From positions 128,001 to 192,000 of the IMG/VR virus record IMGVR_UViG_3300028840_006907: a stretch of DNA of 64,000 nucleotides. One strand, written 5' to 3'. Below are positions 18,981-62,329 of the stretch, one piece after another (position 1 is the stretch's first letter; each line of letters starts with the position of its first letter). This DNA is from a virus. The notes beneath the pieces are model-generated. The model ran no database searches and was not told where the DNA came from. It saw nothing but the letters and a program-made list of their open reading frames with translations. The translations under genes were made by a program, and so were the position numbers.

Positions 18981-19008
18981 AAGTTCTTTGAAAATTATGG
19001 GGGTGTGG

Positions 19009-19274
19009 CAGAAGGGATATGCAGTCCTCAAAAAGTAGACAGGTCTGGGTAAAACCGGGTCATTACAGGAAGTTTGTATTCGCTACTGAAACGAAACAAA
19101 GGGAAGGTAGTGTAACGCTTACGGACTGGTGCTTGCAAGGGTTTACGGAAGACACTGACACGTTGCCTGGGATCTGGAGACAGCCCAGGAGGGTTTGTAA
19201 ATAACGGCAGGAAGTCCTTTTTCCCAATAGTGAGCTTTGGATGACTTATGCCGGTTCGAATCCGGTCACCTCCA
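19009..19274 (+). ncRNA. tRNA-Ala-like element with about 190 nt insertion (interrupted tRNA or other tRNA-like RNA; identity unresolved)
   Basis: 3' end is a canonical T-arm GCCGG-TTCGAAT-CCGGT followed by CACCTCC-A; the only complementary 5' strand is GGGGGTG at 19009, giving a 7 bp acceptor helix with a G3-U70 wobble (the tRNA-Ala/tmRNA identity pair); no group I motifs and no tag-like ORF inside. Confidence 0.3.
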
Positions 19275-19360
19275 TCAAAATAAATTAAATAGATAGATAG
19301 GCAAACTGGCAAGCCATTTGGTTGTAATAGAAAATGTGTAGCAAGATCATAAAGACATAC

Positions 19361-19632
19361 TGGAGTGTAGCTCAGTGGCAGAGCGGGTGGCTGTCTTGGT
19401 TGGCAGCTCTTATAGGAAACTGTAAGATGAAAACTCGGTGAATTCAGGGAAACCTAAGTCTTAAACAGATATGGCAATCCTGAGCGAAGCCTTGAGAAAG
19501 GAACGTGCAGAGACTTATAGCGCCGAGCACCTAAGGTGAAAACTATGGTGATGAGATAGTCCAGGCCCTTGGGAAATCAGGGGAATTACTGTAACCACTT
19601 GGTCGGGGGTTCAAATCCCTCCACTCCAGCCA
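19361..19632 (+). tRNA. tRNA-Asn (anticodon GTT), interrupted by a group I intron in the anticodon loop
   Basis: Exons join to TGGAGTG-TA-GCTC-AGTGGCA-GAGC-G-GGTGG-CTGTTAA-CCACT-TGGTC-GGGGG-TTCAAAT-CCCTC-CACTCCA-G-CCA; U1-A72 and loop CUGUUAA match E. coli tRNA-Asn. Confidence 0.7.
19395..19591 (+). ncRNA. group I self-splicing intron (in tRNA-Asn anticodon loop, between positions 35 and 36)
   Basis: Contains group I core motifs TCAGGGAAACC, GGCAATCCTGAGC, GTGCAGAGACT (R-like) and GAGATAGTCC (S-like); 5' exon ends in U paired to G in putative guide GCAGC (P1 GCTGT/GCAGC); intron ends in G. Confidence 0.65.
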
Positions 19633-21115: not shown

Positions 21116-21189
21116 GCGCCTGAGGCTCTGAGGTGAGCAACTTGGACTCTAAATCCAAGTTTTTCAGGGTTCGACTCCCTACAGGCGCA
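21116..21189 (+). tRNA. putative amber suppressor tRNA (anticodon CTA)
   Basis: Acceptor GCGCCTG/CAGGCGC, A73, D-stem GCTC/GAGC, anticodon arm ACTTGGA-CTCTAAA-TCCAAGT (loop has U33, CUA, A37), T-loop TTCGACT; non-canonical 7 bp anticodon stem or 3 nt D/anticodon linker and short D-loop. Confidence 0.5.
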
Positions 21190-23726: not shown

Positions 23727-24029
23727 TTATAATATTTCTTTCACTTTGTTTTTTAATGTATCACATTTAGGATCAAATTCTGGCTCTTTTCCATCGTTCC
23801 ATGGTGACTTAATCCAGAAAAAGCATGAGTCAACACGACCCACTCTGATGTCTCCATTCATGTAATCCCTTTGTCCTTTAAAATAAGCCCTCTCAATGGC
23901 TTTAAAGTCGGTAGTGGCCTCTATACTAATGTATTGTATTTTATTGCTCTCAGGGGCAAATAACCGCCATGAGATAAGGAATAGTAAGTAAGCTCCTATT
24001 AAAATTATAAAACTATTAATTTTAAACAT
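23727..24029 (-). CDS. hypothetical membrane-anchored protein
   Basis: N-terminal hydrophobic segment FIILIGAYLLFLISW; stop TAA directly abuts downstream ATG. Confidence 0.4.
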   Translation of the reverse strand: MFKINSFIILIGAYLLFLISWRLFAPESNKIQYISIEATTDFKAIERAYFKGQRDYMNGDIRVGRVDSCFFWIKSPWNDGKEPEFDPKCDTLKNKVKEIL

Positions 24030-24897
24030 ATAAATTGTTCTCTTGTATAATACCAGCTATTAATGTGAGAAAAGGAGACTCCCTAAGATACTTTTCCCGA
24101 TCCTCCTTTAATTCTTTTCTGATATCTGTAGAGGATATCTTTGGTATTTTATTACCAGCATCAAAAAACTTATGTGGTTCTTTCATATACCAATTCACAT
24201 TTGGATCGCGCTTTTCTCCTTGTCTAGATACTACAATGAATGGTATCAATTTTTCAAGGTGTTCATAGTTAACCCATTTATCAAATGTATTGGCATTATC
24301 AAGTCCAATGACATAATTGAATCGGTATTCGTTTTTGGCAAAATCCTCTTCCATAAATTTATTAAGGAAATAATATGTCTCTCCAGCTAGTTCGTGAACA
24401 ATTTCATAATCGCATACTTTCATTCTCTTATCTACCTGTACATATTCTCGACACATGGCTAGCCGTAGTGATGCAGGAGCCATTTCTTTTCCATATAAAT
24501 GTCTGTAGCAGGGGATGTACCAAACTTCATCGAATAACCCTGCTTCATCGAGTAAGAATTTTCCTATAGCAAGATGGCCAGGATGGATGGGATCAAAAGC
24601 ACCCCCGATGAGCGCAACTGATACTTTCCTGCCAAGTTTACGGTATAAAGATCGGCTATTAATTTTGGTGATGTTCATTTCAACCAATTCATTAAAATCA
24701 TAACCGGCTTCATTAATCCATTGTATCAGTGTACCAAGTAGATCGCTCGTTTCATCTTTTAATCCCGTCATGGTCCTGGCTCTTGTCAATTCAAATGCTT
24801 CTTTAAGGATATCATTCAATCTGATATCAGTAGGAGTATTTCCAAAAGCTTCTGAATACGTTTTATTGATATTATTTAATAAATCTGATAAATTCAT
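24022..24897 (-). CDS. nadD: nicotinate/nicotinamide mononucleotide adenylyltransferase (NadD/NMNAT-like) with N-terminal extension
   Basis: GGAFDPIHPGHL (HxGH nucleotidyltransferase motif) and ISSTDIR near the C-terminus; about 100 aa N-terminal helical extension of unknown function. Confidence 0.6.
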   Translation of the reverse strand: MNLSDLLNNINKTYSEAFGNTPTDIRLNDILKEAFELTRARTMTGLKDETSDLLGTLIQWINEAGYDFNELVEMNITKINSRSLYRKLGRKVSVALIGGAFDPIHPGHLAIGKFLLDEAGLFDEVWYIPCYRHLYGKEMAPASLRLAMCREYVQVDKRMKVCDYEIVHELAGETYYFLNKFMEEDFAKNEYRFNYVIGLDNANTFDKWVNYEHLEKLIPFIVVSRQGEKRDPNVNWYMKEPHKFFDAGNKIPKISSTDIRKELKEDREKYLRESPFLTLIAGIIQENNLYV

Positions 24898-25078
24898 TTT
24901 TCAATTTCTTTTTAGGTAAATTTTTTATTATACAATCAATACAAATATCTTTACTTTTCCACTGCCCATTTTCTATAGTTCTTAATACCACCCTATAACT
25001 TTTATCTCTAATAAAGAGCCTGCTATCGTCAATATCCATTTGTTTTTTGCATATATCACATATTGTAATTTTAGCCAT
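24872..25078 (-). CDS. small zinc-ribbon protein
   Basis: CDICKK...CIDCIIK. Confidence 0.35.
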   Translation of the reverse strand: MAKITICDICKKQMDIDDSRLFIRDKSYRVVLRTIENGQWKSKDICIDCIIKNLPKKKLKNEFIRFIK

Positions 25079-25095
25079 TTTGTTTTAAATTACAT

Positions 25096-25887
25096 TTATA
25101 TATCTAAATGGCAAATACGAGGCATTTCCATTTTATGAGCATTCTTTTCATGTCGTTCTAGATATAATTCAAGAACTTTCATTTTTCTTTTTTCTATTGT
25201 TAACATAGATTTCATCGCTTCAAGTCCTTTGATAGTTTTTAAACCACCTAATTTTTTACAAAAATCCATAGCCCATTCCAATTCAGAATATGTAGCTCCA
25301 ATCTGATCTTCATCAGTTCTGCCATCTTCCCATAATCCATCAGTAGGTTTTGCTGTTAAAATATCTGAGTTCACTCCAAGATAGGCTCCCATACCATATA
25401 CCTCAGATTTGACTAGCTCTCCTATTGGACTTATATCAACACCACCATCACCGAATTTTGTAAAGAAACCAATTCCGAAATCTTCAACCATATTCCCAGT
25501 ACCAACAACATAATAATTATGGGTATTTGCGATAGCATAAAGAGCTACCATTCGAAGACGGGATCTGGTATTAACCATGGCAAATTCATTGTAATAATTA
25601 CTATGATTAAAATTATTAAAGACAACTGAAAGATCTTCCGTATGACTGGTAACATTGGTATAGTCTTTTTTTAATTTTTCAACATGTGCTTCTGCTCTGG
25701 GAAGAATATCTTGATTTATTGGCATATGGGCACATATAACAGGTTTATAAGTTCTGGCACATAAATTTGATACAACTGCTGAGTCAATTCCACCTGAAAC
25801 TCCAACTACACAGCCATCTACATGGGATTCCTTCATGTCTCTAATAATCCAATTTACAATATGATCTGAGACTTTTTTATAGTCCAA
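25096..25887 (-). CDS. nadE: NH3-dependent NAD+ synthetase
   Basis: PP-loop GVSGGIDS near N-terminus; length 263 aa typical of NadE. Confidence 0.65.
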   Translation of the reverse strand: MDYKKVSDHIVNWIIRDMKESHVDGCVVGVSGGIDSAVVSNLCARTYKPVICAHMPINQDILPRAEAHVEKLKKDYTNVTSHTEDLSVVFNNFNHSNYYNEFAMVNTRSRLRMVALYAIANTHNYYVVGTGNMVEDFGIGFFTKFGDGGVDISPIGELVKSEVYGMGAYLGVNSDILTAKPTDGLWEDGRTDEDQIGATYSELEWAMDFCKKLGGLKTIKGLEAMKSMLTIEKRKMKVLELYLERHEKNAHKMEMPRICHLDI

Positions 25888-25899
25888 ATTTATCCTCCT

Positions 25900-27624
25900 T
25901 TAATTCATGGCAATTGAGTATATTTTTTTATTGTCAACAAATAACACTTTCATATGTTCATGGTATAATCGCATAGATACATTAATCGGTGTATTCGTAA
26001 TATCCTTACTTCCTTTATTATTTTTAAATAGAGACATTTTATCATTATCGACAGAGATGCACATTCCAGTAGGTAATGTAATAAAATTAACTGGATGGTA
26101 ATCAATCATATCTTCCTGTTTAATATCATAGCTAGTATGGGTTTTATCAAAACAAATTGTATATTTAAAATAACTTCCCTGTTTTTCTGTGACCACTATA
26201 CAGATTCCTTTATCATACCGGGCATCAATGATTCTTTGGCCGTCCAATTCTTTTACATAAGTATTAATACATTTCCCTCTTTCGAAAGGAATAGCTAATC
26301 GTATCTTTGTGAAATCATCCTGTACAATAACACCTCGGAAAGACTTATATGATTTGCTTATTCTACATACAGTTTTAGTCGTATGAATAACTCTCTGGAA
26401 TTTTTCAAAATGATTCTCTATCAATCTTCCATTATTAATGGTGTAAATATACCCATTATACCCCATTATGTCTTCAGCTTTGATGTCGGATATTGATTTA
26501 TTATTTAAATCAAAGAACTCAGCTTTTAAATTCTTGAAATAAACTATTAAGGGATCCGCTCCATAAGCTTCACACATGCCTACTATGGTTGATTTTAAAG
26601 GTTTATGGAACTTAACCACTTTATCTTTATTCTGGTCATATATGGCTTTAGAAGTTATCACAAAGCGTTTATCATTAAAGAAGAAGATATTCCGAATCGG
26701 TTCATTTACTTCGAATACTTTTTCTACTATGAAATCACCTCTACTAGTTATAGTTCTGGCAACTGCTGCTACAACCACGACCTCGTCCGGTAATGGCGGG
26801 ATGGATCTCTCATTATTTTTAAATTCTGATACATACCATTCAAAATGTTTTTTAGGGATCACAGAATAATCTTGGCACATGGCCGGTAATGGCTTTGCTC
26901 CTTTATCAAAATTTGAGACTCCATCATCCATCCTTTTAATCCATTGTTTCGGTTTATAATCGATATGTCTACTTTTGTAAGGGTGAATACCCAGATACAT
27001 TTGATAAGTTACGACACCCCAGGAGAACCAGTCAGAGTACTCAGTAAATTGAGCATTCTTAACCTGTCGATCTCGAACACTATCCATAAGAGCATCTGCT
27101 GGGAAGCTTTTTGTTTTCCAGGCATCCACATCAATGTGATAAACGGTCTTTAAATCACCGCTAAGAAGGAAATTCATCTCATTATAATCAACTACTAGGA
27201 AGCCATTTTTATGGATGTATTGTAGGGCTTTCTGCATTTTAAGAACTAGGTCAGCTATATCTGTTGGACTTAAATGTTTATTGTCTCTGAAAGTCTTAGT
27301 AAATACTTGGCAGAGAAATTCAACTCCATCAACATATCTCATTGTAAACCCAATGGGTGTGTGGTTCCTCACTTCATATAAAGGTTCTATGGGTGACAGG
27401 ATATCATCTCGTTTTAATTCGGTCAATTCGTGTATTTTTGCTTCTGGTATCATATTTTTAGTATCATGATAAATTTTATATGCAATCCCATTTAGATAAA
27501 AAACTGTTCCAAAACCACCAGAAGCTTTATAATTATCATCAGTCAAAGTAACAATTTCTTTTGTTGTCTGAACTTTGAATGACTTCTTTATTATCGGGTT
27601 CATTTTTGTTTTCGGTAAAATCAT
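25900..27624 (-). CDS. Ser/Thr protein kinase-like protein with large C-terminal domain
   Basis: Gly-rich loop GGFGTVF, lysine in IAYKIY, catalytic-loop-like HKNGFLVVDYNEMNFLL, DVDAW, SDWFSWGVVTY; about 330 aa C-terminal region unassigned. Confidence 0.55.
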   Translation of the reverse strand: MILPKTKMNPIIKKSFKVQTTKEIVTLTDDNYKASGGFGTVFYLNGIAYKIYHDTKNMIPEAKIHELTELKRDDILSPIEPLYEVRNHTPIGFTMRYVDGVEFLCQVFTKTFRDNKHLSPTDIADLVLKMQKALQYIHKNGFLVVDYNEMNFLLSGDLKTVYHIDVDAWKTKSFPADALMDSVRDRQVKNAQFTEYSDWFSWGVVTYQMYLGIHPYKSRHIDYKPKQWIKRMDDGVSNFDKGAKPLPAMCQDYSVIPKKHFEWYVSEFKNNERSIPPLPDEVVVVAAVARTITSRGDFIVEKVFEVNEPIRNIFFFNDKRFVITSKAIYDQNKDKVVKFHKPLKSTIVGMCEAYGADPLIVYFKNLKAEFFDLNNKSISDIKAEDIMGYNGYIYTINNGRLIENHFEKFQRVIHTTKTVCRISKSYKSFRGVIVQDDFTKIRLAIPFERGKCINTYVKELDGQRIIDARYDKGICIVVTEKQGSYFKYTICFDKTHTSYDIKQEDMIDYHPVNFITLPTGMCISVDNDKMSLFKNNKGSKDITNTPINVSMRLYHEHMKVLFVDNKKIYSIAMN

Positions 27625-28487
27625 TAATATTCCTCATTTAAATAAATAGTAGCAGTACCAACGTCATCATAATGATGCCAATTATGTTTTTTAACTTTCT
27701 TACCAAAAAAGATCATGCGCTTTTTTACAAATTCACCGGTAGTGTTTTTAAATCCAATAAATTCGGGTATTGTAATATCTAATCCTATATCTTTTTTATA
27801 ACTATCTCTGTAGGTTGATATACCATCTGTACATATTGTAACAGATAAGAGTTTATCCTTCATAATATTGGAAATTTCTTCGGAATAGATTGTATCAAAA
27901 GGTAATGAAGATTCAAGAGGATTTTCTAGCCCCTTTTCTCCTGACAAAGTAATAATTTCCCGAAAGCATTGAGGATTATCTTCACCTTTAATAGCACAAT
28001 TTTTTAAATAGACTGTTCTATCACTTATTAGATAAAATGGGGCATTTAAGGAATAATCTATTTTCATTATTAGCTGATAATTACCGCCATCTTCTTTTCT
28101 ATAATTAGCTGTAATGACACCATCACCCCATGCAAATACCAATACTCTTGAAGACAATCTTATAGTTATTAATAATGTGGCTTCCAAAGCCTTAGGAGTA
28201 ATGGGGTATATCTTTCTTATTTCATCAGCTCTTTTGTGAATGCCGTTTCCGAGATAAAATGAGAGTTCTTTCAGATTTAATCGTTCGAATAATCCAGTTT
28301 GGATACAAAATTCAATATTATATTTAGCAACATGACATAATATTTGAGCACCTACTTCAGAATGATCCGCAGAAGAACATCCATCTGCAACGATGCCATA
28401 CTCAATTCCTTTAAAAGAGCCACTTAATGCATAGTCTTGACAGACTAAATGAGTGCTTCCTTTTTCATAATATGAGTCACAGCTCAC
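27624..28487 (-). CDS. PP2C-family protein phosphatase-like protein
   Basis: YGIVADGCSS, VFAWGDGVI, TICTDGIST, DDVGTATIYL resemble PP2C metal-binding motifs; GTG start behind AAAGGAGG. Confidence 0.5.
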   Translation of the reverse strand: MSCDSYYEKGSTHLVCQDYALSGSFKGIEYGIVADGCSSADHSEVGAQILCHVAKYNIEFCIQTGLFERLNLKELSFYLGNGIHKRADEIRKIYPITPKALEATLLITIRLSSRVLVFAWGDGVITANYRKEDGGNYQLIMKIDYSLNAPFYLISDRTVYLKNCAIKGEDNPQCFREIITLSGEKGLENPLESSLPFDTIYSEEISNIMKDKLLSVTICTDGISTYRDSYKKDIGLDITIPEFIGFKNTTGEFVKKRMIFFGKKVKKHNWHHYDDVGTATIYLNEEY

Positions 28488-28546
28488 AATTACCTCCTTT
28501 TAGTAAGCACAGAAGGCTCCATTACAGAGCCTTCCTGCAAAAATTC

Positions 28547-29314
28547 CTAGTTAAATTTGAAATCTTTAATTGGTTGTGAAGGTTGTCCGGTGCCGAGGGC
28601 ATCTGACTGTGAGCTAACACTCTGACTCATAAACTGGGCTAGTTTAGCTAATTTTGATTCAGAAACATCACCCATTGATATATATTCATCAAGTCCAGCT
28701 TCTTCTTTGAAATCCGTAAGTAATTTCTTTAAATCTTTTCTACCATCATTAACACCAATAAGAATGGTACGAACTGATTCCATCGCTTCATCTTCATCAT
28801 TCATACTGTCTAATGTTTCTTTTATCATTTGTGGAGTAACACCGAATTCGGGGCAATTATCTTCACCATCAGTAATTATGAAAACCATTCCATTAGCATT
28901 TACGATCCTTTCAGAATTATAGAGCTTATTTATATAATCTCTCATGACGTCCAAACCACAAAGAGTCGCTTGAAAAAGATTTGTAGCATTCGCTGGAAAG
29001 ATCACATCGTCGTAATTATCTAGTTCAATATCACTCAGAAGCATCCATCCATGAATTTCCTGGATACCTCCATTATTAAAAGCGATAACACGTAATAAAA
29101 GATTCAAAGCTCGTGGGGAGCCTTTACATGACCCTACACATGCTTTTATCATTTTTTCCAGACCTGTTTTAAACCCTTTCACTGAATAGGTTTTATCAAC
29201 GATTATAGTGACTGCTGTATATTCTGTAGCTCCAAGTCTATCAACTTTAACTTTTGTATAATCGAATTTATGGAGAGATACATCGGAATCACTTACATTC
29301 ATAAACTTAGGCAT
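28547..29314 (-). CDS. von Willebrand factor A (vWA) domain protein, TerY-like
   Basis: VFIITDGEDN and vWA-like alternation of hydrophobic strands; first gene of the vWA / PP2C / kinase triad. Confidence 0.5.
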   Translation of the reverse strand: MPKFMNVSDSDVSLHKFDYTKVKVDRLGATEYTAVTIIVDKTYSVKGFKTGLEKMIKACVGSCKGSPRALNLLLRVIAFNNGGIQEIHGWMLLSDIELDNYDDVIFPANATNLFQATLCGLDVMRDYINKLYNSERIVNANGMVFIITDGEDNCPEFGVTPQMIKETLDSMNDEDEAMESVRTILIGVNDGRKDLKKLLTDFKEEAGLDEYISMGDVSESKLAKLAQFMSQSVSSQSDALGTGQPSQPIKDFKFN

Positions 29315-29326
29315 AAGTTATCCTTT

Positions 29327-30154
29327 CTAGAAAAAGTCCACTGTTGTAGCAACCTGCATACCATAATCATCTGCAGTATACTTGTTAATAAAGTCTTCAC
29401 CATTTTGCTCACATCCAGGTACACTTGAAGTAGCATCTTTGAGTAAAACGAATTTTTTAACTTGGTCGGCACCTAAATATTCAAAGATATCTCTGAATGT
29501 AAAGGAATAGCAGTGTGAAAGAGCTTCACCAGCTCCAAGAATTATATCATATTCCTTGATTACATTGATAAAATCTTCGTTTAATCTGGTTCCTTCATCC
29601 TCTGGGTCAATCACGTCAGCCACTAATGCTGAATAGTGCTCAGTGAAAGGATTACTCCCTTTGGTGGTACGGGGAGCAATACCGTAATAAGTGGCTTCCC
29701 ATTCAGAGACCGCATTGAGAAATTCAGGCTCTAACATTTGTCCATCACTTCCGATAATACAATGTTCAGGCCATATCATTAATTGATATCTGTTATTAGC
29801 CTTTAATTGTTTCAAGTAGTCAACATAACGCTCTTGAAAGCCTGGATTGAAAGCACGGTATTCTCCATCTAAGACCATTTCTAAAGTTAAGTACGTAGGT
29901 ACAGTATTCCCTTTGTGAAGGAAAATAGGTGTGGGGTGGTTTCCCTCTCTGTCAATCCAAGATCGGCTGTGAGCCACGTGGAGCTTATAATGTGAGTCCA
30001 TCGTGATTTGGATTTCATCAATATCACCCCCGAATTTTCGAATCATTTTTGAAAGTCTTGCCATGTCTTCAACGGCACCAGGAACAGTGAGAGTTCCCCT
30101 TGTAAAGTCTTTTTGAGGGTCAATTACCACAAGGCACACTTTAGGTTTTTCCAT
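29327..30154 (-). CDS. pncA: isochorismatase-fold hydrolase, nicotinamidase (PncA)-like
   Basis: VIDPQKDF (catalytic Asp region), WPEHC (nicotinamidase-type motif), candidate catalytic Cys in ALSHCY. Confidence 0.5.
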   Translation of the reverse strand: MEKPKVCLVVIDPQKDFTRGTLTVPGAVEDMARLSKMIRKFGGDIDEIQITMDSHYKLHVAHSRSWIDREGNHPTPIFLHKGNTVPTYLTLEMVLDGEYRAFNPGFQERYVDYLKQLKANNRYQLMIWPEHCIIGSDGQMLEPEFLNAVSEWEATYYGIAPRTTKGSNPFTEHYSALVADVIDPEDEGTRLNEDFINVIKEYDIILGAGEALSHCYSFTFRDIFEYLGADQVKKFVLLKDATSSVPGCEQNGEDFINKYTADDYGMQVATTVDFF

Positions 30155-30201
30155 ATCTTATCCTCCTTTAAGATTTAGTATATGTTATCTGTTATTTATA
30201 A

Positions 30202-30444
30202 TTAAAGCAACCCTTTTATATCAGCCCTTTCAATATCAGTTCTGTTAAAAAAGTTCTTATTTCCTTTTTTTCTAGGTTCTGGTAATACCCCGCATTTTAT
30301 ACGACGGTATATAGTTTGTTTGGATATATTATATTCAGTACAAATATCTCTCAAACTAATTTCATCTCTATGATGTTTGTAAAGTATTTTAGCTACTTCT
30401 TCTGCTATAGCTTTTGCTAATTTTTTAATATCTGCATCATCCAT
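30202..30444 (-). CDS. small HTH DNA-binding protein
   Basis: ISLRDICTEYNISKQTIYRRIKCG helix-turn-helix-like segment. Confidence 0.4.
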   Translation of the reverse strand: MDDADIKKLAKAIAEEVAKILYKHHRDEISLRDICTEYNISKQTIYRRIKCGVLPEPRKKGNKNFFNRTDIERADIKGLL

Positions 30445-30451
30445 AATATAT

Positions 30452-31624
30452 TTATATCATTAAATCTTTTTTACAATGTACAATCATATCTTTATTACCA
30501 GTGTTCTTTCCTTCGTCATCTGATAACTTGACTGTGTCAATCCATCTGCCATTTATCATACAGGCTATCATTTTAATAACAATATTCAATGGTATGACAT
30601 CTACGTCATTTGTAAACCAGGTTCCAATTCCATATGCATCTCTGATCAAATTGATGCAAGCTTTATGGATAGATTTCACTTTATCTATACTGTTAATAGC
30701 ATCAGAGAATACCAATGTTTTAAGCATCGGATCAATTCTTAATTTTTGGTATTTACTTACTGATTTAGTAATGAAATCAAAAGGTGAACCACTATCTTGC
30801 CGGAGACCATCAAAAAGTTTCGCAAAAAATGTATTGAATGTTTTTAGGAATACATCAGTAGTAAATGTATCTGGAAGAGCAATTCCAAGATCTCCTTGAA
30901 ATATATCAGACCATATTTTCAGAGCCATCTCATTAGCCATACGAAATCCATACATAGCTGCATGGAATTGATACCATTCATGAGCTTTTGTTCCTATGGG
31001 AGTTAAATTGTATTTCTTTGCTAGATAAACATTACTAGGTCCAGAGAAACAACTACCTAGATATTGCTTTGCATCACGAACTACTTCATCATGATTCTTT
31101 AGAGAGTATCTTCTACGAGTACCAAATTCAGCGATGGGTACTCCGATTTCTTTAAGAGCCATAAATTTCAGACGATTTCTTTCTTTACGTTCCTTACGAA
31201 TCATCTTTGTCTTACCAGTTTTCTCAAAATAAAGTTGACTGATAGTAGCCATCAAAGGTACTTCCCAAAGAATCTTTCGGTACCAGGGTCCTATATACTT
31301 ACAATGAAAATTAGATCCTTCTTGTGTTAATATTATCTCATCTGGGTTATACCGGTACCCACTAAGAAGATCGATATAGGCAGGATTTAAATAATAACAT
31401 TTTTCTTTAAGAAAGTCTATATCATCTTTGCTTAATGTAAAACCACGAAATGTGTCTATAATTCTCCTTAATTCATCGGCAAAGCCATCTGGAAACTCTC
31501 TACCATCACGGTTTATAAATTGGTACATAGCGAGAGCATTGGGGTATTTCTGACATGCCCCACACTGCATAGTGAATTTATACACATCATTATCGAGTAT
31601 ACCAGCTACGTACTCATTCTCCAT
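30452..31624 (-). CDS. pncB: nicotinate phosphoribosyltransferase (PncB-like)
   Basis: DNDVYKFTM, EFGTRRRYS, GPSNV...GTKAHEW match the NAPRTase signature pattern. Confidence 0.65.
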   Translation of the reverse strand: MENEYVAGILDNDVYKFTMQCGACQKYPNALAMYQFINRDGREFPDGFADELRRIIDTFRGFTLSKDDIDFLKEKCYYLNPAYIDLLSGYRYNPDEIILTQEGSNFHCKYIGPWYRKILWEVPLMATISQLYFEKTGKTKMIRKERKERNRLKFMALKEIGVPIAEFGTRRRYSLKNHDEVVRDAKQYLGSCFSGPSNVYLAKKYNLTPIGTKAHEWYQFHAAMYGFRMANEMALKIWSDIFQGDLGIALPDTFTTDVFLKTFNTFFAKLFDGLRQDSGSPFDFITKSVSKYQKLRIDPMLKTLVFSDAINSIDKVKSIHKACINLIRDAYGIGTWFTNDVDVIPLNIVIKMIACMINGRWIDTVKLSDDEGKNTGNKDMIVHCKKDLMI

Positions 31625-59217: not shown

Positions 59218-60060
59218 TTAATCGAGACCGAATTCGATAACTTCACCATCGCTCTCTAGGTTTTCTATTTTAGAAGGTTTTGCCCGAGAAGCCTTATCTT
59301 TAAGACCCTCAAGACATTCGTTTGCATAGTTACAATATTTACAGGATTTGGAACTAGGTGTAGGAAGATATTTCTCTGTATTAACAATCTCTTTAATATC
59401 CAAAGATAGATTTGCTCTGAATTCGTTTAATAATTCCTGATCAATTGCTACAGGAATAAGAGTGTTAAAACGGTAATAGAAAAATCCTAGTTCCATTGGT
59501 AATCTTTTAAATTGGAAATAGTAAAGTAAAGCATAAAATAGGAGTTGATTATTATCAATATTTTTACCTATTTTAGTAGTCCCTTTTCCATCAAAGATAG
59601 ATTCTTCTGTTGTTTTTATAGGATTTTTATGTATAAAATCTAACCTTCCTTTTAAAATTAGAGAATTTTTTAATGTTACTTCTATCTGTATTTCTGACCG
59701 TGTATTAAGAAAATAATTTCTATTCGTTGATTCCATGATATGGCATACATCAGAATAAGCTGATGCTAGGATCTCCTCTTTAGACTCTTTACAGAAAAAT
59801 GCAGTCCAGTCAACGAGGCTATTTCTTAAAATCATTTTGTATAAAGTAATTAGTTTTTCTCTTATTTCTGAAGAAGTCAAGATAGGGTTGGTTTTACACC
59901 AAATATTACAATATAATTCAAAGAATTTTTCTACCAGTCTTCCATACAAAGTGAAATACTCATTAATAGGTACAGTAGGAGGATCTTCCTTTACATATTG
60001 TTTATAGAATTTTTTAGGGCATTCTTTAAATGCCTTCCAGGATTTAAAGGTTATGTTCAT
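59218..60060 (-). CDS. PD-(D/E)xK nuclease, Cas4/RecB-like with Cys cluster
   Basis: GRLDFIH...IFDGKGTTK nuclease-like core; one N-terminal Cys (KECPKK) and C-terminal CKYCNYANEC. Confidence 0.4.
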   Translation of the reverse strand: MNITFKSWKAFKECPKKFYKQYVKEDPPTVPINEYFTLYGRLVEKFFELYCNIWCKTNPILTSSEIREKLITLYKMILRNSLVDWTAFFCKESKEEILASAYSDVCHIMESTNRNYFLNTRSEIQIEVTLKNSLILKGRLDFIHKNPIKTTEESIFDGKGTTKIGKNIDNNQLLFYALLYYFQFKRLPMELGFFYYRFNTLIPVAIDQELLNEFRANLSLDIKEIVNTEKYLPTPSSKSCKYCNYANECLEGLKDKASRAKPSKIENLESDGEVIEFGLD

Positions 60061-61031
60061 TTAGAAGCCTCCTGGATAAAATAAAGCACTCTTTTCCGGA
60101 CAGCTTCAACCATATCCATTTTGTCTATCATATCATCAATTGTTTGGGATTTATCAGATGAATCAACTACAGCTTCAGTAGCTAATTTTTCCACAAATAA
60201 TTTTATTTCTTCTTTTTCCTGTTGTTCCTGTTTTTTCTTTTCAAGATCAAAAACCTCACTTGCAGGTTGAATTCTTAATCTTATAGGACGTACTAAATAC
60301 GATGGCTCACCGTTTTCTACCTGGATTTTTATGAAACCTATCTGAGGGTGATGGTCTATATCATCTTCTGATATAGCCCCGCGACTCATTGAGCCTATAT
60401 TTATAAAATATTTCCCGTTCTGTTTATAGATACCCTGGTCTATGTGATAATGCCCTATAACGAAAATGTCAGATGGGAGTTCACCTATCTCATCATACCC
60501 ATAAATTTTATTCTTAAAAAGCATAGTACTTTTTAAACCAGCATAAATGTGGAGAGCACATATCTGTGTAATACAATCACCTTTATCAGGTAGATTTAAA
60601 TTTGATAAATCAATATCTTCTGTAAATGGAATTCCTACAAGAGATATTTTCACATTATCCTTTTCAATTATCTCATGACGAAGTTGAATAAGGGTACCAT
60701 CAGCAAATAACACTCCCAGCGGTTGTTCAGAGATACTTTCCAATCGATCTGCTGAAAGATCATGATTTCCTTCTATCATATAGATGGGACAGGAAAATTT
60801 TTGAAATATTTTTATGAGTTCCCTGTTTAAGTTGTGGCTGTTTTTTGCCGGATTCTTAAGATTAAAAAGATCCCCTGCTATAATAGCAGCATCAGCATTT
60901 AATTTTCTACATGCCATGCCCATTTGGTCTATTTTATCAAGCATGGTTTTTTTAAAATCATCTGTCCTTGATCTGGGACCGTTATCACTAATATGGATAT
61001 CATTCGCTGTTATAATTGTAAATTCAGTCAT
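60057..61031 (-). CDS. sbcD: SbcD/Mre11-family nuclease
   Basis: Calcineurin-like phosphoesterase motifs DIHISD, AGDLFN, EGNHD, GHYH. Confidence 0.65.
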   Translation of the reverse strand: MTEFTIITANDIHISDNGPRSRTDDFKKTMLDKIDQMGMACRKLNADAAIIAGDLFNLKNPAKNSHNLNRELIKIFQKFSCPIYMIEGNHDLSADRLESISEQPLGVLFADGTLIQLRHEIIEKDNVKISLVGIPFTEDIDLSNLNLPDKGDCITQICALHIYAGLKSTMLFKNKIYGYDEIGELPSDIFVIGHYHIDQGIYKQNGKYFINIGSMSRGAISEDDIDHHPQIGFIKIQVENGEPSYLVRPIRLRIQPASEVFDLEKKKQEQQEKEEIKLFVEKLATEAVVDSSDKSQTIDDMIDKMDMVEAVRKRVLYFIQEASK

Positions 61032-62329
61032 AATGGCCTCTCACATAAAGGGCATACTTTAATTTCGTTCTTTTCTTTTTGTGCTTTTTCAAGCTCAGAG
61101 GTAGTTTTCTTTAAATCATCCCTTGTGGTTTTCAGGGATTTAACTAGTGCAAGAAATTCAATTTCTATGCTTTGCATATTTGTTAAATCTTTTAGCTTTA
61201 ATGAAACCTTATTTATAGCTTTTTGGATTTGATCGAAATTTAGAGATTGTAAAACATTCTTTTGTTTTCGTATGTTTTCAGAAGTAGTGATTAAAGAATC
61301 ATCCCATTTTTTAAGGGATAATACTTCATTTAGAGATAATTCTGTATCTTCAATTTTAGGTATCTTTATTTTTGATATACTTTTTAATTTGTTAACTATT
61401 GACGTTAATACTTTATACTTTTCACTCTTTTCTTGAATCCATTCAAATTCATCTAATATTTCTTTACCTTTGGTTTCATTAGGAATACTTATTTCGGGAA
61501 TGCTTTTTAATTTTTCTATGACCTCTATTGATTTTTTATATTTGCTATCTGTTTCTTGAAGCCATGGTAATTCAGATATAACTTTTTTACATTTAGAACT
61601 ATCAGGTATCTCGATATCTTTTATGGATTTAAGACGTTGTAATATGTCAGTGAGGGATTTTAACTGTCCTTCTAAATATCTGATGGTATGGATTTCTTCT
61701 TGAAGTTCTTTTGCCTTTTTATCTTTTTCAGCAAGTAATTTTACTGTTTCTTTTATTGTTTTGAAATCCTTATATTTCTCAAGATCAATTTGAAGTGCTT
61801 TGAGATCAGCTTCCCTGGTTTTTAATAACGATTTATCAGCTTTAATTGCTTTTTGGCATAAACTATCTGCAGTACTGAGAGTATCGATTTGATATAGATT
61901 TGCTAAAACCTCTGTGACGACAGGACCAGGTTTATTGATAAGAAAAAGAGGATCGAATTGAGATGCTATTAATGGTGATATCTTTTGATCCCCTATTACC
62001 ATTTTTCGAAATCCTGCCTTTGTTATAGGTTCGGGAATAGTTCCTTTTAATTTTGTAAACGGTTCATCATAACCTTTGATTTTATAAGAAGCTGTACTTT
62101 TTGTTTTTTCCCATTCAAAATTAAGGTCTTTATAATCGACAATGACTCTAGCTTTTTTCTTACCTTTCTTTATGAAACCACTTCCGGTCTGGTTATTTAA
62201 AGCTGCATCAATTGCTCTTATAATAGCACTTTTCCCAATATTGTTCTTACCAATAACAACAGTGAATCCTTCAATATCGAAATCAACTTTATTTATACTC
62301 TGGAAATTTTCAATTGATATTTTAGTCAT
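61028..62329 (-). CDS. SbcC/Rad50-like ATPase, N-terminal half (Walker A, coiled-coil, terminal CxxC hook)
   Basis: Walker A GKNNIGKS, long coiled-coil, ends in KVCPLCERPL (zinc-hook-like CxxC) immediately before the stop. Confidence 0.5.
   Translation of the reverse strand: MTKISIENFQSINKVDFDIEGFTVVIGKNNIGKSAIIRAIDAALNNQTGSGFIKKGKKKARVIVDYKDLNFEWEKTKSTASYKIKGYDEPFTKLKGTIPEPITKAGFRKMVIGDQKISPLIASQFDPLFLINKPGPVVTEVLANLYQIDTLSTADSLCQKAIKADKSLLKTREADLKALQIDLEKYKDFKTIKETVKLLAEKDKKAKELQEEIHTIRYLEGQLKSLTDILQRLKSIKDIEIPDSSKCKKVISELPWLQETDSKYKKSIEVIEKLKSIPEISIPNETKGKEILDEFEWIQEKSEKYKVLTSIVNKLKSISKIKIPKIEDTELSLNEVLSLKKWDDSLITTSENIRKQKNVLQSLNFDQIQKAINKVSLKLKDLTNMQSIEIEFLALVKSLKTTRDDLKKTTSELEKAQKEKNEIKVCPLCERPL

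What the first reader, a model, noticed from the sequence alone, without database searches (positions are those of the whole stretch)
19009..19274. tRNA-Ala-like acceptor and T-arm enclosing an unexplained ~190 nt insertion
A canonical T-arm plus 3' acceptor strand (GCCGG-TTCGAAT-CCGGT-CACCTCC-A) ends at 19274. The only complementary 5' strand is GGGGGTG at 19009, 28 nt after tRNA-Pro, which gives a 7 bp helix with G3-U70, the tRNA-Ala and tmRNA identity pair. The intervening sequence has no group I motifs and no recognisable D-arm or anticodon arm, although a CTTGCAA heptamer (the tRNA-Ala anticodon-loop sequence) occurs inside without flanking stem. It could be a tRNA with a novel intron, a tmRNA-like RNA or another tRNA-like structured RNA.
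Basis: seen in the sequence. Interest (0 to 1): 0.55.

Follow-up and report, generated by a model that had tools for sequence, protein, structure and literature searches.

The report
Phage tRNA-like RNA with giant arm
The region is a real 276-base RNA gene in a jumbo phage's tRNA cluster: a tRNA body that cannot decode and carries a conserved 200-base folded domain where the variable loop should be, a family with no match in Rfam 15 and none found in my literature searches.

Summary
The acceptor helix and T-arm are real, but the 5' strand GGGGGTG lies at 18999-19005, not 19009.

- **Homologues.** The interior is not a spacer. An 88-nt core recurs at about 80% column identity in eight other metagenomic contigs. 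It always sits inside a tRNA-like body and always within a dense phage tRNA array. The acceptor, D and T sequences differ between copies and co-vary.
- **Position of the insert.** Alignment with true phage tRNA-His genes places hairpin H1 (19024-19045) in the anticodon-arm position. Its loop is oversized and A-rich, with no U33 and no anticodon. The roughly 200-nt domain emerges through helix H2 (19059-63/19241-45) at the variable-loop position. That is the topology of class II long arms and of tmRNA helix 2.
- **What it is not.** G3:U70 occurs only in the window copy. Three relatives carry the tRNA-His set (G-1, C73). No tag reading frame is conserved. ARAGORN and Rfam tmRNA and group I models do not match. 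Simple excision of the insert does not yield a canonical tRNA.
- **Best reading.** This is a new family of non-decoding, tRNA-bodied structured RNAs, probably matured like tRNAs and possibly aminoacylated. Their function is unknown.

The parts
18999..19274 (+). Whole gene: 276-nt tRNA-bodied structured RNA. CCA is not encoded; the next bases are TCA.
   Evidence: 8 homologues of 216-284 nt with the same ends
18983..18993 (+). Upstream spacer motif GTTCTTTGAAA, directly after the CCA of tRNA-Pro(ggg). The same motif lies upstream of the L033 and L040 copies; L044 has GCTCTTTGACA. Role unknown.
   Evidence: TTCTTTGA followed by AA occurs in the tRNA region of the window only here
18999..19005 (+). 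Acceptor 5' strand GGGGGUG. It pairs with 19267-19273 and gives G3:U70.
   Evidence: 7/7 pairs in all 8 full-length family members, 6 different sequences
19008..19022 (+). D-arm: stem GCA(G)/(A)UGC, loop AAGGGAU with A14, GG and A21. It is preceded by U8 G9 and followed by A at position 26 (19023).
   Evidence: D-stem pairs co-vary (GCUC/GAGC, GCAU/GUGC, GCGU/ACGC)
19024..19045 (+). H1: hairpin in the anticodon-arm position (GUCCU / AGGUC) with a 12-nt A-rich loop CAAAAAGUAGAC. It has no U33 and no 7-nt anticodon loop.
   Evidence: In L044 it superimposes on the 5 bp + 7 nt + 5 bp anticodon arm of true tRNA-His but has the loop ACAAACA. The stems co-vary. The loop motif is CAAACAG or AAAAACG.
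19046..19057 (+). H1b: small 3-bp hairpin (UGG GUAAAA CCG), found in type A copies only
19059..19063 (+). H2 5' strand GUCAU, the base of the giant 'variable arm'
   Evidence: 5-7 bp in all 9 copies, with compensatory changes (GCAUGA/UCAUGC, ACGUCAA/UUGACGU, GCAGUAG/UUACUGC)
19064..19130 (+). Domain I (type A only): a long irregular stem carrying hairpin Hm (19081-86/19107-12). The 20-nt Hm loop UGAAACGAAACAAAGGGAAG (19087-19106) is nearly invariant.
   Evidence: Hm: CGCUAC/GUAGUG, GUCUG/CGGGC, GCUCG/CGGGC, UCCGG/CCGGG
19131..19235 (+). Domain II: a rod of stacked helices. Pe 19131-36/19230-35; GGG/CCC 19139-41/19223-25; GGA/UCC 19147-49/19215-17; CUG/CAG 19155-57/19208-10; CGUUG/UAACG 19161-65/19202-06; Pb 19166-71/19184-89 with an AU bulge; CUG/CAG 19174-76/19181-83.
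   Evidence: (98.7% of cells paired, 6 pairs with changes on both sides, 0/500 shuffles reach the covariation score)
19177..19180 (+). GNRA tetraloop capping Pb: GAGA here, GUAA or GCGA in relatives
   Evidence: alignment
19190..19201 (+). Invariant 12-nt bulge AGGGUUUGUAAA, identical in all 9 copies
19241..19245 (+). H2 3' strand AUGAC
19246..19249 (+). UUAU: the remaining variable-loop nucleotides. The last (U48) can form the Levitt pair with A15.
   Evidence: A15/U48 in most copies, G15/C48 in L049
19250..19266 (+). T-arm GCCGG UUCGAAU CCGGU
19267..19274 (+). Acceptor 3' strand CACCUCC plus discriminator A73

Best explanation
This is one member of a family of non-decoding, tRNA-bodied structured RNAs encoded in the tRNA arrays of jumbo phages. 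The family has no match in Rfam 15 and none found in my literature searches.

Shown:
- It has a complete tRNA core: a 7-bp acceptor stem, U8, a D-arm with A14/GG/A21, a T-arm, and a 15:48 pair.
- The anticodon-arm position holds a hairpin (H1) whose loop is oversized and A-rich and cannot act as an anticodon loop.
- A roughly 200-nt branched domain leaves the core through helix H2 at the variable-loop position. In the window copy this domain consists of domain I, with a conserved 20-nt loop, and domain II. Domain II is a rod with an invariant 12-nt bulge, an AU bulge and a GNRA tetraloop.
- The domain is conserved and co-varies across nine contigs.

Inferred:
- The RNA is co-transcribed with its neighbouring tRNAs.
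- It is cut out by RNase P and by 3' trimming, and receives CCA from the host enzyme.
- The tRNA body gives it precise ends, stability and an accessible acceptor end. The conserved insert is the working part, folded compactly through the tetraloop and the A-rich loops.
- The window copy carries G3:U70 with A73, and three relatives carry G-1 with C73. These are the two classic anticodon-independent identity sets (Ala and His). The RNA is therefore probably aminoacylated and acts as a tRNA mimic towards a tRNA-handling partner (synthetase, EF-Tu, ribosome or a defence nuclease).

Which partner it targets is not known.
For: - **Homologues.** blastn and pattern scans recovered eight homologous loci besides the window: L026, L033, L040, L044, L049, L050, L053 and L059. 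The core alignment has 80% mean column identity.
- **Genomic setting.** Every copy sits inside a tRNA body and inside a dense tRNA array. All 9 hits in bacterial and archaeal genome contigs were coding-sequence false positives.
- **Core helices.** 98.7% of cells are paired and 6 pairs have changes on both sides. Slid controls give 0-2 such pairs, and 0 of 500 shuffles reach the covariation score.
- **Type A consensus structure.** RNAalifold predicts 70 pairs, of which 28 have compensatory changes.
- **Helix table.** The acceptor, D, T, H1, H2, Pe and Hm helices are maintained with different sequences in different copies.
- **Position of the insert.** The alignment with true phage tRNA-His genes places H1 on the anticodon arm and the insert in the variable loop.
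- **His-like bodies.** The ends of L033, L044 and L050 best match tRNA-His among 192 tRNAs in the held loci. All three have G-1 and C73.
- **Copy number.** Core model R1 finds exactly one copy per locus and nothing else in 673 kb.
- **No known family.** No Rfam family covers the insert in the window or in six homologue loci.
- **Phage tRNA set.** The window's phage (388,651-bp contig) has its own canonical tRNA-His and at least 33 other tRNAs.
- **tmRNA topology.** The rest of tmRNA leaves its tRNA-like domain in the direction of a class II long variable arm (PMC3929946).
Against: - No expression, processing or charging data exist.
- Only nine sequences are available, representing about seven independent lineages.
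- The minimum-free-energy fold of the window copy is not unusually stable (z = -0.58). The homology-based model scores -64 kcal/mol against an MFE of -84 kcal/mol. A competing local hairpin (19042-19061) overlaps H1, H1b and H2.
- The tRNA bodies differ between subgroups (Ala-like, His-like, others). That is also what a mobile insertion into different tRNA genes would produce.
- The identity elements may be relics of parent tRNAs rather than selected features. L050 has lost both the D-loop GG and the T-loop UUC.
- The proposed loop-bulge contacts have no covariation support.
- The function is inferred, not shown.
Confidence: 0.58

Rival explanations
1. This is a tRNA gene interrupted by a new kind of intron that is not group I. 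The insert is removed, either by self-splicing or by a phage or host endonuclease plus ligase, to give a working tRNA. The conserved core is the splicing machinery or its recognition structure.
For: - The insert is conserved while the tRNA bodies differ (Ala-like, His-like, others). Mobile introns behave this way.
- The very next gene is a tRNA with a bona fide group I intron.
- HNH homing-endonuclease ORFs are scattered through the array.
- Lak megaphages have 'enigmatic' tRNA introns (PMC6784885).
- ARAGORN in intron mode can force the window copy into tRNA-Gln(UUG) with a 207-nt intron.
Against: - ARAGORN's intron solutions differ in anticodon and intron position between homologues, and it fails on two of them.
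- The window's AGUCC/UGACU stem is not conserved.
- With H2 taken as the anticodon stem, no combination of flanking bases gives a 7-nt loop with U33 in L033. The bases 5' of the H2 3' strand are paired in helix Pe.
- With the insert removed from the variable loop, what remains is a tRNA-His body with the loop ACAAACA, or 9-14-nt A-rich loops. Such an RNA cannot decode.
- No intron-less allele was found.
- Group I models give no hit.
- The Lak intron sequences lack the family's motifs.
Confidence: 0.2
2. This is a divergent, compact phage tmRNA. It is charged with alanine through G3:U70, enters stalled ribosomes and adds a tag encoded in the insert.
For: - The first four acceptor pairs and A73 match tRNA-Ala and tmRNA.
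- The T-arm and 3' strand match tmRNA models locally.
- The full-length Rfam tmRNA alignment gives 11.2 bits, E = 0.032.
- Related phage arrays do carry tmRNAs (L006, L024; L001/L002).
- The large domain leaves through a helix at the same position as tmRNA helix 2.
Against: - ARAGORN calls no tmRNA here, although it calls the phage tmRNAs in L001, L006 and L024.
- The Rfam score is far below the 47-bit threshold.
- G3:U70 is absent from the other 7 full-length copies.
- A full D-stem and an anticodon-arm hairpin are present.
- My reading of the frames through the conserved loop found no shared frame or stop between the window and its relatives. The variable parts evolve by helix-preserving changes rather than codon-like changes.
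- No SmpB appears among the 25 listed of 42 Pfam families hit by the window's 90 ORFs.
Confidence: 0.05
3. This is a decaying tRNA pseudogene that happened to acquire an inert insertion. It has no function of its own.
For: - The L050 copy has lost the D-loop GG and the T-loop UUC.
- The anticodon loops are degenerate.
- The fold energy is not exceptional.
Against: - The family has nine members, from contigs of up to 442 kb and from different samples.
- They share an invariant 12-nt bulge, a conserved GNRA hairpin and many compensatory pairs in both the tRNA body and the insert.
- Pseudogenes do not preserve helices.
Confidence: 0.04

Closest known systems
tmRNA (SsrA), including compact phage-encoded forms
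   Same: - It has a tRNA-like acceptor and T-arm module.
- A large non-tRNA domain leaves the core through a helix in the direction of a class II long variable arm.
- It lacks a usable anticodon.
- The window copy has G3:U70 and A73.
- It is encoded in phage tRNA arrays, as true phage tmRNAs are.
   Different: - It has a full D-stem and a hairpin in the anticodon-arm position.
- It has no pseudoknot series and no conserved tag frame or stop.
- Alanine identity is not conserved; three copies carry histidine identity.
- It is not detected by ARAGORN or by the Rfam tmRNA models.
Class II tRNAs (Leu, Ser, bacterial Tyr, Sec) with long variable arms
   Same: It has a canonical tRNA core with an extra helix emerging between the anticodon stem and the T-stem. 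A few nucleotides, including position 48, follow that arm.
   Different: - The arm carries about 200 nt in two domains, instead of 10-25 nt.
- The 5' linker is long.
- The anticodon loop is non-canonical.
- The bodies resemble class I tRNAs (His-like).
tRNA genes with group I introns (for example the neighbouring gene at 19361-19632; cyanobacterial tRNA-Leu, Azoarcus tRNA-Ile)
   Same: It is a tRNA gene enlarged by about 200 nt of conserved structured RNA. It shares the same genomic neighbourhood.
   Different: - The insert is not in the anticodon loop.
- It has no P3-P8/P4-P6 core and no Rfam RF00028 match.
- Excision would not give a decoding tRNA.
Bacterial and phage Y RNA-like RNAs (YrlA)
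   Same: It is a non-coding RNA combining a tRNA-mimicking module with a second functional module. YrlA RNAs are also found in phages.
   Different: - In YrlA the tRNA-like part is internal and the termini lie in the protein-binding stem. Here the termini form the acceptor stem.
- No Rfam YrlA hit falls on the element. The weak YrlA hits fall on ordinary tRNAs.
- No Ro/Rsr gene was seen.
Engineered tRNA scaffolds for RNA expression (Ponchon and Dardel type)
   Same: A tRNA body is used as a chassis that gives processing, stability and folding to an unrelated structured RNA.
   Different: This one is natural. The cargo sits at the variable loop rather than replacing the anticodon arm, and the anticodon-arm loop is itself conserved.
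'Enigmatic' tRNA introns of Lak megaphages (PMC6784885)
   Same: They are unexplained insertions in the tRNA genes of very large phages.
   Different: - The Lak insertion shown in the fetched passage of Table S6 is about 90 nt and sits next to the anticodon (Tyr GTA at 33-35, possible intron 37-129).
- The supplementary text held for that paper, one file of which was truncated when stored, contains neither of this family's two core motifs.

Membership tests
tmRNA | Detected by dedicated tmRNA models (ARAGORN; Rfam RF00023 and its variants at the gathering score) | tested here: not met
   ARAGORN makes no tmRNA call. RF00023 scores 11.2 bits against 47. Permuted and beta models match only the T-arm and 3' strand.
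tmRNA | G3:U70 alanine identity conserved across the family | tested here: not met
   Present in the window copy only. The other 7 full-length copies have G:C or C:G at position 3:70.
tmRNA | An mRNA-like region with a resume codon, a conserved tag frame and an in-frame stop | tested here: not met
   I read the frames by eye from the sequences. The window and L033/L044/L050 share no frame or stop. The region evolves by helix-preserving changes.
tmRNA | tRNA-like domain without an anticodon arm and with a reduced D-arm; pseudoknots PK1-PK4 | tested here: not met
   A full D-stem and the H1 hairpin are present. No pseudoknot series is supported.
tmRNA | Large domain leaves the tRNA-like domain through a helix at the long-variable-arm position | tested here: met
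   H2 lies between H1 and the last 4 nt before the T-stem. For tmRNA geometry see PMC3929946.
Group I intron | Match to the conserved catalytic core (Rfam RF00028) | tested here: not met
   No hit at E<=10 in the window region, nor at E<=5 in six homologue loci. The same model scores 92.8 bits on the neighbouring gene.
Group I intron | Excision restores a functional host gene, here a canonical anticodon stem-loop | tested here: not met
   No consistent exon junction gives a 7-nt loop with U33 across the homologues.
Group I intron | Self-splicing with guanosine | not testable with these tools
   This needs an in vitro transcript.
Canonical elongator tRNA | 7-bp acceptor stem, D-arm, T-arm with the TΨC loop, and tertiary-core nucleotides | tested here: met
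   Eight of nine copies keep the D-loop GG. Seven keep the UUC T-loop (exceptions: L050 GGCAGGU, L040 UCCAAAU).
Canonical elongator tRNA | 5-bp anticodon stem with a 7-nt loop, U33, an anticodon and a purine at 37 | tested here: not met
   H1 loops are 7-14 nt, A-rich and lack U33 (CAAAAAGUAGAC, ACAAACA, AAAAACGGA and others).
Bacterial tRNA-His (applies to relatives L033/L044/L050, not the window copy) | Encoded G-1 opposite C73; body similar to tRNA-His; GUG anticodon | tested here: inconclusive
   G-1, C73 and best body similarity to tRNA-His are met. The GUG anticodon loop is absent. The window copy has U-1 and A73.
YrlA / Y RNA-like | Rfam RF02553 match; termini in a Ro-binding stem with an internal tRNA-like module | tested here: not met
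   No hit falls on the element. The termini form the acceptor stem.
Archaeal-type tRNA intron (bulge-helix-bulge) | Bulge-helix-bulge motif at both exon-intron junctions and a splicing endonuclease available | not tested
   I inspected this only by eye and did no systematic search. No EndA or RtcB appears among the 25 listed of 42 Pfam families in the window.

The most novel reading that the evidence does not exclude
Jumbo phages make a second, tmRNA-independent class of aminoacylatable tRNA mimic. It is an anticodon-less tRNA body charged through acceptor-only identity: Ala in this phage, His in relatives. Its 200-nt variable-arm domain would be a catalytic or ribosome-, synthetase- or defence-targeting module. 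That would make it a new functional RNA class acting on the host translation or tRNA-surveillance machinery.
Probability: 0.15. Interest if true: 0.9.

Novelty: new variant of a known kind. Interest (0 to 1): 0.7.

Why it matters
Large conserved structured RNAs of unknown function are rare, and they have repeatedly led to new biochemistry.

- **Unusual architecture.** A full tRNA core has lost decoding ability but gained a roughly 200-nt conserved domain at the variable-loop position. It has been kept in the tRNA arrays of several phage contigs of about 390-440 kb, along with shorter ones, from different samples.
- **Testable charging.** Alanine-type and histidine-type acceptor ends are the two identity sets that work without an anticodon. 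Their presence makes aminoacylation of a non-decoding RNA a concrete, testable idea.
- **Annotation gap.** tRNA finders and Rfam miss such genes. ARAGORN in default mode reports nothing at this locus, and in intron mode it gives contradictory tRNA calls.
- **If it is an intron.** It would be a new intron class in bacterial viruses.

Tried and rejected
- **tmRNA.** ARAGORN and Rfam at gathering and permissive thresholds gave only T-arm-level matches.
- **Group I intron or any Rfam family.** Nothing covers the insert in the window or in six homologue loci.
- **ARAGORN intron mode.** It gave inconsistent anticodons (Gln, Gly, Arg, Leu, Glu, amber suppressor) and intron positions, and no call for two copies. 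I rejected these as forced fits.
- **H2 as the anticodon stem, with a 7-nt loop just 5' of its 3' strand.** This looked attractive (U at position 2 and a purine at position 6 in most copies). I abandoned it because those bases are paired in the co-varying helix Pe and because L033 gives no U33 in any register.
- **Anticodon-like 'CU-NNN-AA' motif in type B copies.** The N positions co-vary with a 3' motif (CUGU/ACAG against CUCU/AGAG), so this is probably a helix rather than an anticodon. With 4-5 sequences it remains unresolved.
- **Tag reading frames through the conserved 20-nt loop.** The window and its relatives share no frame or stop.
- **T-box-like pairing of an insert UGGN with the discriminator.** No covariation.
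- **Loop-bulge pairing (H1 loop AAAC with GUUU of the invariant bulge).** Possible, but neither side varies.
- **Stop-codon recoding.** An amber-suppressor tRNA is present, but ORF lengths show no clear signal in this window.
- **Closer relatives.** Exact patterns in IMG/VR found none for the window's own ends. One scan was wasted on a wrong gap length. Neighbour-protein homologues lie only on very short contigs. The phage database has no near match to the window.
- **Promoter and terminator scan.** Nothing above the shuffled background.
Full report
**1. The observation**

The complementary GGGGGTG is at 18999-19005, ten bases upstream of the stated 19009 and 18 nt after tRNA-Pro(ggg). The gene therefore spans 18999-19274, which is 276 nt. 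The seven pairs include G3:U70.

The T-arm consensus GGTTCRANTCC occurs eight times in the window against 0.16 expected. Six matches are in ARAGORN tRNAs, one is here, and one is in the intron-bearing tRNA next door.

U8-G9 is followed by a D-arm at 19008-19022 with A14, GG and A21. A hairpin follows at 19024-19045.

ARAGORN finds 13 tRNAs but nothing at this locus. Rfam at its gathering scores finds nothing here either.

**2. The interior is a conserved structured RNA**

- A blastn search of loci fetched for other reasons hit a 71-nt stretch in L026, from a 424-kb viral contig. The two sequences showed a compensated hairpin: CCUGGG/CCCAGG against CCAAAG/CUUUGG.
- Scanning public collections with the shared block GGGTTTGTAAANNNCGGCAGG gave true homologues in L026 (identical to L032 and L042), L033 (identical to L060), L040, L044, L049 (442-kb contig), L050 (identical to L054), L053 (cut at its 5' end) and L059.
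- All nine hits in bacterial and archaeal genomes were coding-sequence false positives.
- The window itself comes from a 388,651-bp JGI contig.
- The 88-nt core aligns with 80% mean column identity. It includes an invariant 12-nt stretch, AGGGUUUGUAAA.
- The core helices are paired in 98.7% of cells, and six pairs change on both sides. Controls with slid partners give 0-2 such pairs. None of 500 shuffles reaches the observed covariation score.
- A covariance model of the core (R1) finds exactly one copy in each locus, at 94-107 bits. These are training sequences, so they match by construction. It finds nothing else in 673 kb, including the rest of the window.
- No Rfam family covers the insert in the window or in six homologue loci.

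**3. Every copy is wrapped in a tRNA body**

All eight full-length copies (216-284 nt) have a 7/7 acceptor helix, a D-arm two bases after it, and a T-arm directly before the 3' strand.

| Copy | Acceptor 5' strand |
|---|---|
| window | GGGGGUG |
| L033 | GUGGUCG |
| L044 | GUGGCCG |
| L050 | GUGACCG |
| L026, L059 | GCCCUUG |
| L040 | GCCCCUA |
| L049 | GCCCUCG |

The 3' strands compensate in each case, and the D- and T-stems co-vary as well. Tertiary-core nucleotides are kept: U8, A14, the D-loop GG and A21 in eight of nine copies, and the UUC T-loop in seven (L050 has GGCAGGU and L040 UCCAAAU). The 15:48 pair changes from A:U to G:C in L049.

All copies lie in dense tRNA arrays. The four 'type A' copies (window, L033, L044, L050) always sit among Gln, Pro and Asn tRNAs.

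**4. Where the insert sits**

L033, L044 and L050 have G at -1 and C73. Their ends best match tRNA-His among 192 tRNAs in the held loci.

I laid L044 over a true phage tRNA-His. After position 26, L044 has 5 bp, a 7-nt loop and 5 bp (GCCGC-ACAAACA-GUGGC), exactly where the anticodon arm belongs. The extra sequence begins after that. It ends four or five bases before the T-stem.

So hairpin H1 (window 19024-28/19041-45) is the anticodon-arm equivalent. The roughly 200-nt insert (window 19046-19245) occupies the variable-loop position. It is closed by helix H2 (window GUCAU/AUGAC, 19059-63/19241-45). H2 has 5-7 bp in all nine copies, with many compensatory changes.

The H1 stems co-vary. Their loops are 7-14 nt and A-rich, with the motif CAAACAG or AAAAACG. 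They have neither U33 nor a plausible anticodon.

**5. Anatomy of the insert in the window copy**

- After H1 comes a small hairpin, H1b.
- H2 then opens a three-way junction.
- Domain I (19064-19130) is a long irregular stem bearing hairpin Hm (19081-86/19107-12). The 20-nt Hm loop UGAAACGAAACAAAGGGAAG is almost invariant among type A copies.
- Domain II (19131-19235) is a rod of stacked helices, in this order:
  - Pe (GCUUGC/GUGAGC; CUCU/GGAG, AUCUCC/GGAGAU and GAUC/GAUC in relatives)
  - GGG/CCC
  - GGA/UCC
  - CUG/CAG
  - CGUUG/UAACG (CGCUG/CAGCG in the relatives, which is a double compensatory change)
  - the invariant 12-nt bulge on the 3' side
  - hairpin Pb, with an AU bulge and a GNRA tetraloop (GAGA, GUAA or GCGA)
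- 'Type B' copies (L026, L059, L040, L049, L053) share the core of domain II but lack domain I. They have a GGAA-UCGCGU-UUCC hairpin and a G-rich 5' motif before H2. Their fine structure, including a possible pseudoknot, is not resolved with so few sequences.

**6. What it is not**

*tmRNA.*
- ARAGORN does not call a tmRNA here. It does call phage tmRNAs in L001/L002, L006 and L024.
- Rfam tmRNA reaches 11.2 bits against a threshold of 47. The other tmRNA models match only the T-arm and 3' strand.
- G3:U70 is confined to the window copy.
- A full D-stem and an anticodon-arm hairpin are present.
- Frames read through the conserved loop share neither register nor stop between the window and its relatives. 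I read these from the sequences.

*Group I intron.*
- RF00028 gives no hit, while the same model scores 92.8 bits on the next gene.
- The helix order does not fit a P3-P8/P4-P6 core.

*An intron of another kind.*
- ARAGORN's intron mode yields different anticodons and junctions for homologous copies, and none at all for two of them.
- The tidy tRNA-Gln(UUG) solution for the window depends on a stem, AGUCC/UGACU, that no homologue conserves.
- Treating H2 as the anticodon stem fails. The bases before its 3' strand are paired in Pe, and L033 offers no U33 in any register.
- Removing the insert from the variable loop leaves a body whose anticodon loop cannot decode.
- The 'enigmatic' tRNA introns of Lak megaphages (PMC6784885) are a different case. 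The one shown in the fetched passage is about 90 nt and lies next to the anticodon. The supplementary text held for that paper, one file of which was truncated when stored, contains neither of this family's two core motifs.

**7. Most likely mechanism**

Shown: a tRNA core under purifying selection for its helices and elbow, a non-decoding anticodon-arm hairpin, and a conserved, co-varying domain of about 200 nt at the variable-arm position.

Inferred:
- The RNA is transcribed with its neighbours. No terminator-like site separates it from tRNA-Pro(ggg) or from the next tRNA.
- RNase P and 3' trimming release it, and it receives CCA, which is not encoded. Several ordinary tRNAs of this phage also lack an encoded CCA.
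- The tRNA body supplies defined ends, stability and a free acceptor end. The insert is the functional module.
- The geometry matches tmRNA, whose remaining RNA leaves the tRNA-like domain in the direction of a class II long variable arm (PMC3929946).
- The window copy has the alanine set (G1-G4 pairs as in tRNA-Ala, G3:U70, A73). Three relatives have the histidine set (G-1:C73). From established knowledge of tRNA identity, these are the two sets that function without an anticodon. An in vitro Ala-to-His identity switch of tmRNA is listed in the references of PMC3929946.
- I therefore consider aminoacylation plausible, and action as a tRNA mimic likely. The partner is unknown.

Against over-reading the identity elements:
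- They may be inherited relics.
- L050 has lost both partners of the elbow contact.
- The window's phage already has a canonical tRNA-His.

**8. Caveats**

- Nine sequences amount to about seven independent lineages.
- No expression data are available.
- The window copy's predicted stability is ordinary (z = -0.58).
- The homology model is 20 kcal/mol above the unconstrained minimum, partly because the long stem of domain I was left out.
- A competing hairpin in the window copy overlaps H1, H1b and H2.
- The collection scans are exhausted, so the family's true spread is unknown.

**9. Verdict**

The feature is real. The best description is a new family of tRNA-bodied, non-decoding structured RNAs from jumbo-phage tRNA arrays. 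The closest analogues are tmRNA in topology and class II tRNAs in the position of the arm. It is not a member of either family.

Noticed in passing
window 19361-19632: The next gene is a tRNA that ARAGORN misses. It has U1:A72, G73 and an encoded CCA, and is interrupted by a group I intron (Rfam RF00028, 92.8 bits, 19385-19583). Using the U·G pair in P1 and a terminal G, I place the intron at about 19395-19591. The spliced anticodon loop would be CUGUUAA, that is tRNA-Asn(GUU). This fits the Asn tRNAs found at the same place in related arrays.
   Followed up: partly
window 18983-18993; also upstream of the elements in L033, L040 and L044: The spacer motif GTTCTTTGAAA (GCTCTTTGACA in L044) lies between the preceding tRNA's CCA end and the element in four of the nine loci. 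It does not lie upstream of other tRNAs in the window. It could be a processing or regulatory site.
   Followed up: partly
window 21116-21189: A tRNA with anticodon CUA (amber suppressor; ARAGORN labels it 'Pyl') is present. Comparing ORF lengths under recoded stop codons gave no clear sign of TAG recoding in this 64-kb stretch.
   Followed up: partly
window 1-21200 and L070: This is a very large phage tRNA array: 13 ARAGORN tRNAs in the window and 13 more distinct ones upstream in L070 (which lists 20, seven of them shared with the window), plus the two atypical genes. Small ORFs are interspersed, several of them HNH endonucleases (HNH_3, HNH_5, HNH). No tRNA-Ala was seen in the stretch examined.
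   Followed up: partly
window 24022-31624, minus strand: A cluster of NAD-related and signalling genes is present. It includes a cytidylyltransferase-like (NMNAT-type) gene, NAD synthase, a 574-aa protein kinase, a PP2C phosphatase and NAPRTase. This may be an NAD-replenishing counter-defence module.
   Followed up: no
L001 2417-2697 and L002 13232-13512: An unrelated compact (281-nt) phage tmRNA has the same GGGGGTG...CACCTCCA ends and a predicted 33-residue tag. It lies about 340 nt upstream of a tRNA with anticodon UCA (opal suppressor).
   Followed up: no
L050 3172-3450 (identical in L054, a different sample): This family member has lost the D-loop GG (AAUAGAAA) and the T-loop UUC (GGCAGGU) together. 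It keeps all helices, G-1, C73 and an encoded CCA.
   Followed up: partly
window 60057-62329, minus strand: The SMC/Rad50-like ATPase ORF (61028-62329) ends in a Rad50 zinc-hook match. It is directly followed by a 324-aa ORF that overlaps it by 4 nt. This may be a Rad50-like gene split in two.
   Followed up: no
window 19019-19204 (+) and 19028-19312 (-): Mechanical ORFs of 61 and 94 aa overlap the RNA gene. The gene calls on the identical Logan contig L030 list neither of them. They are probably not genes.
   Followed up: partly
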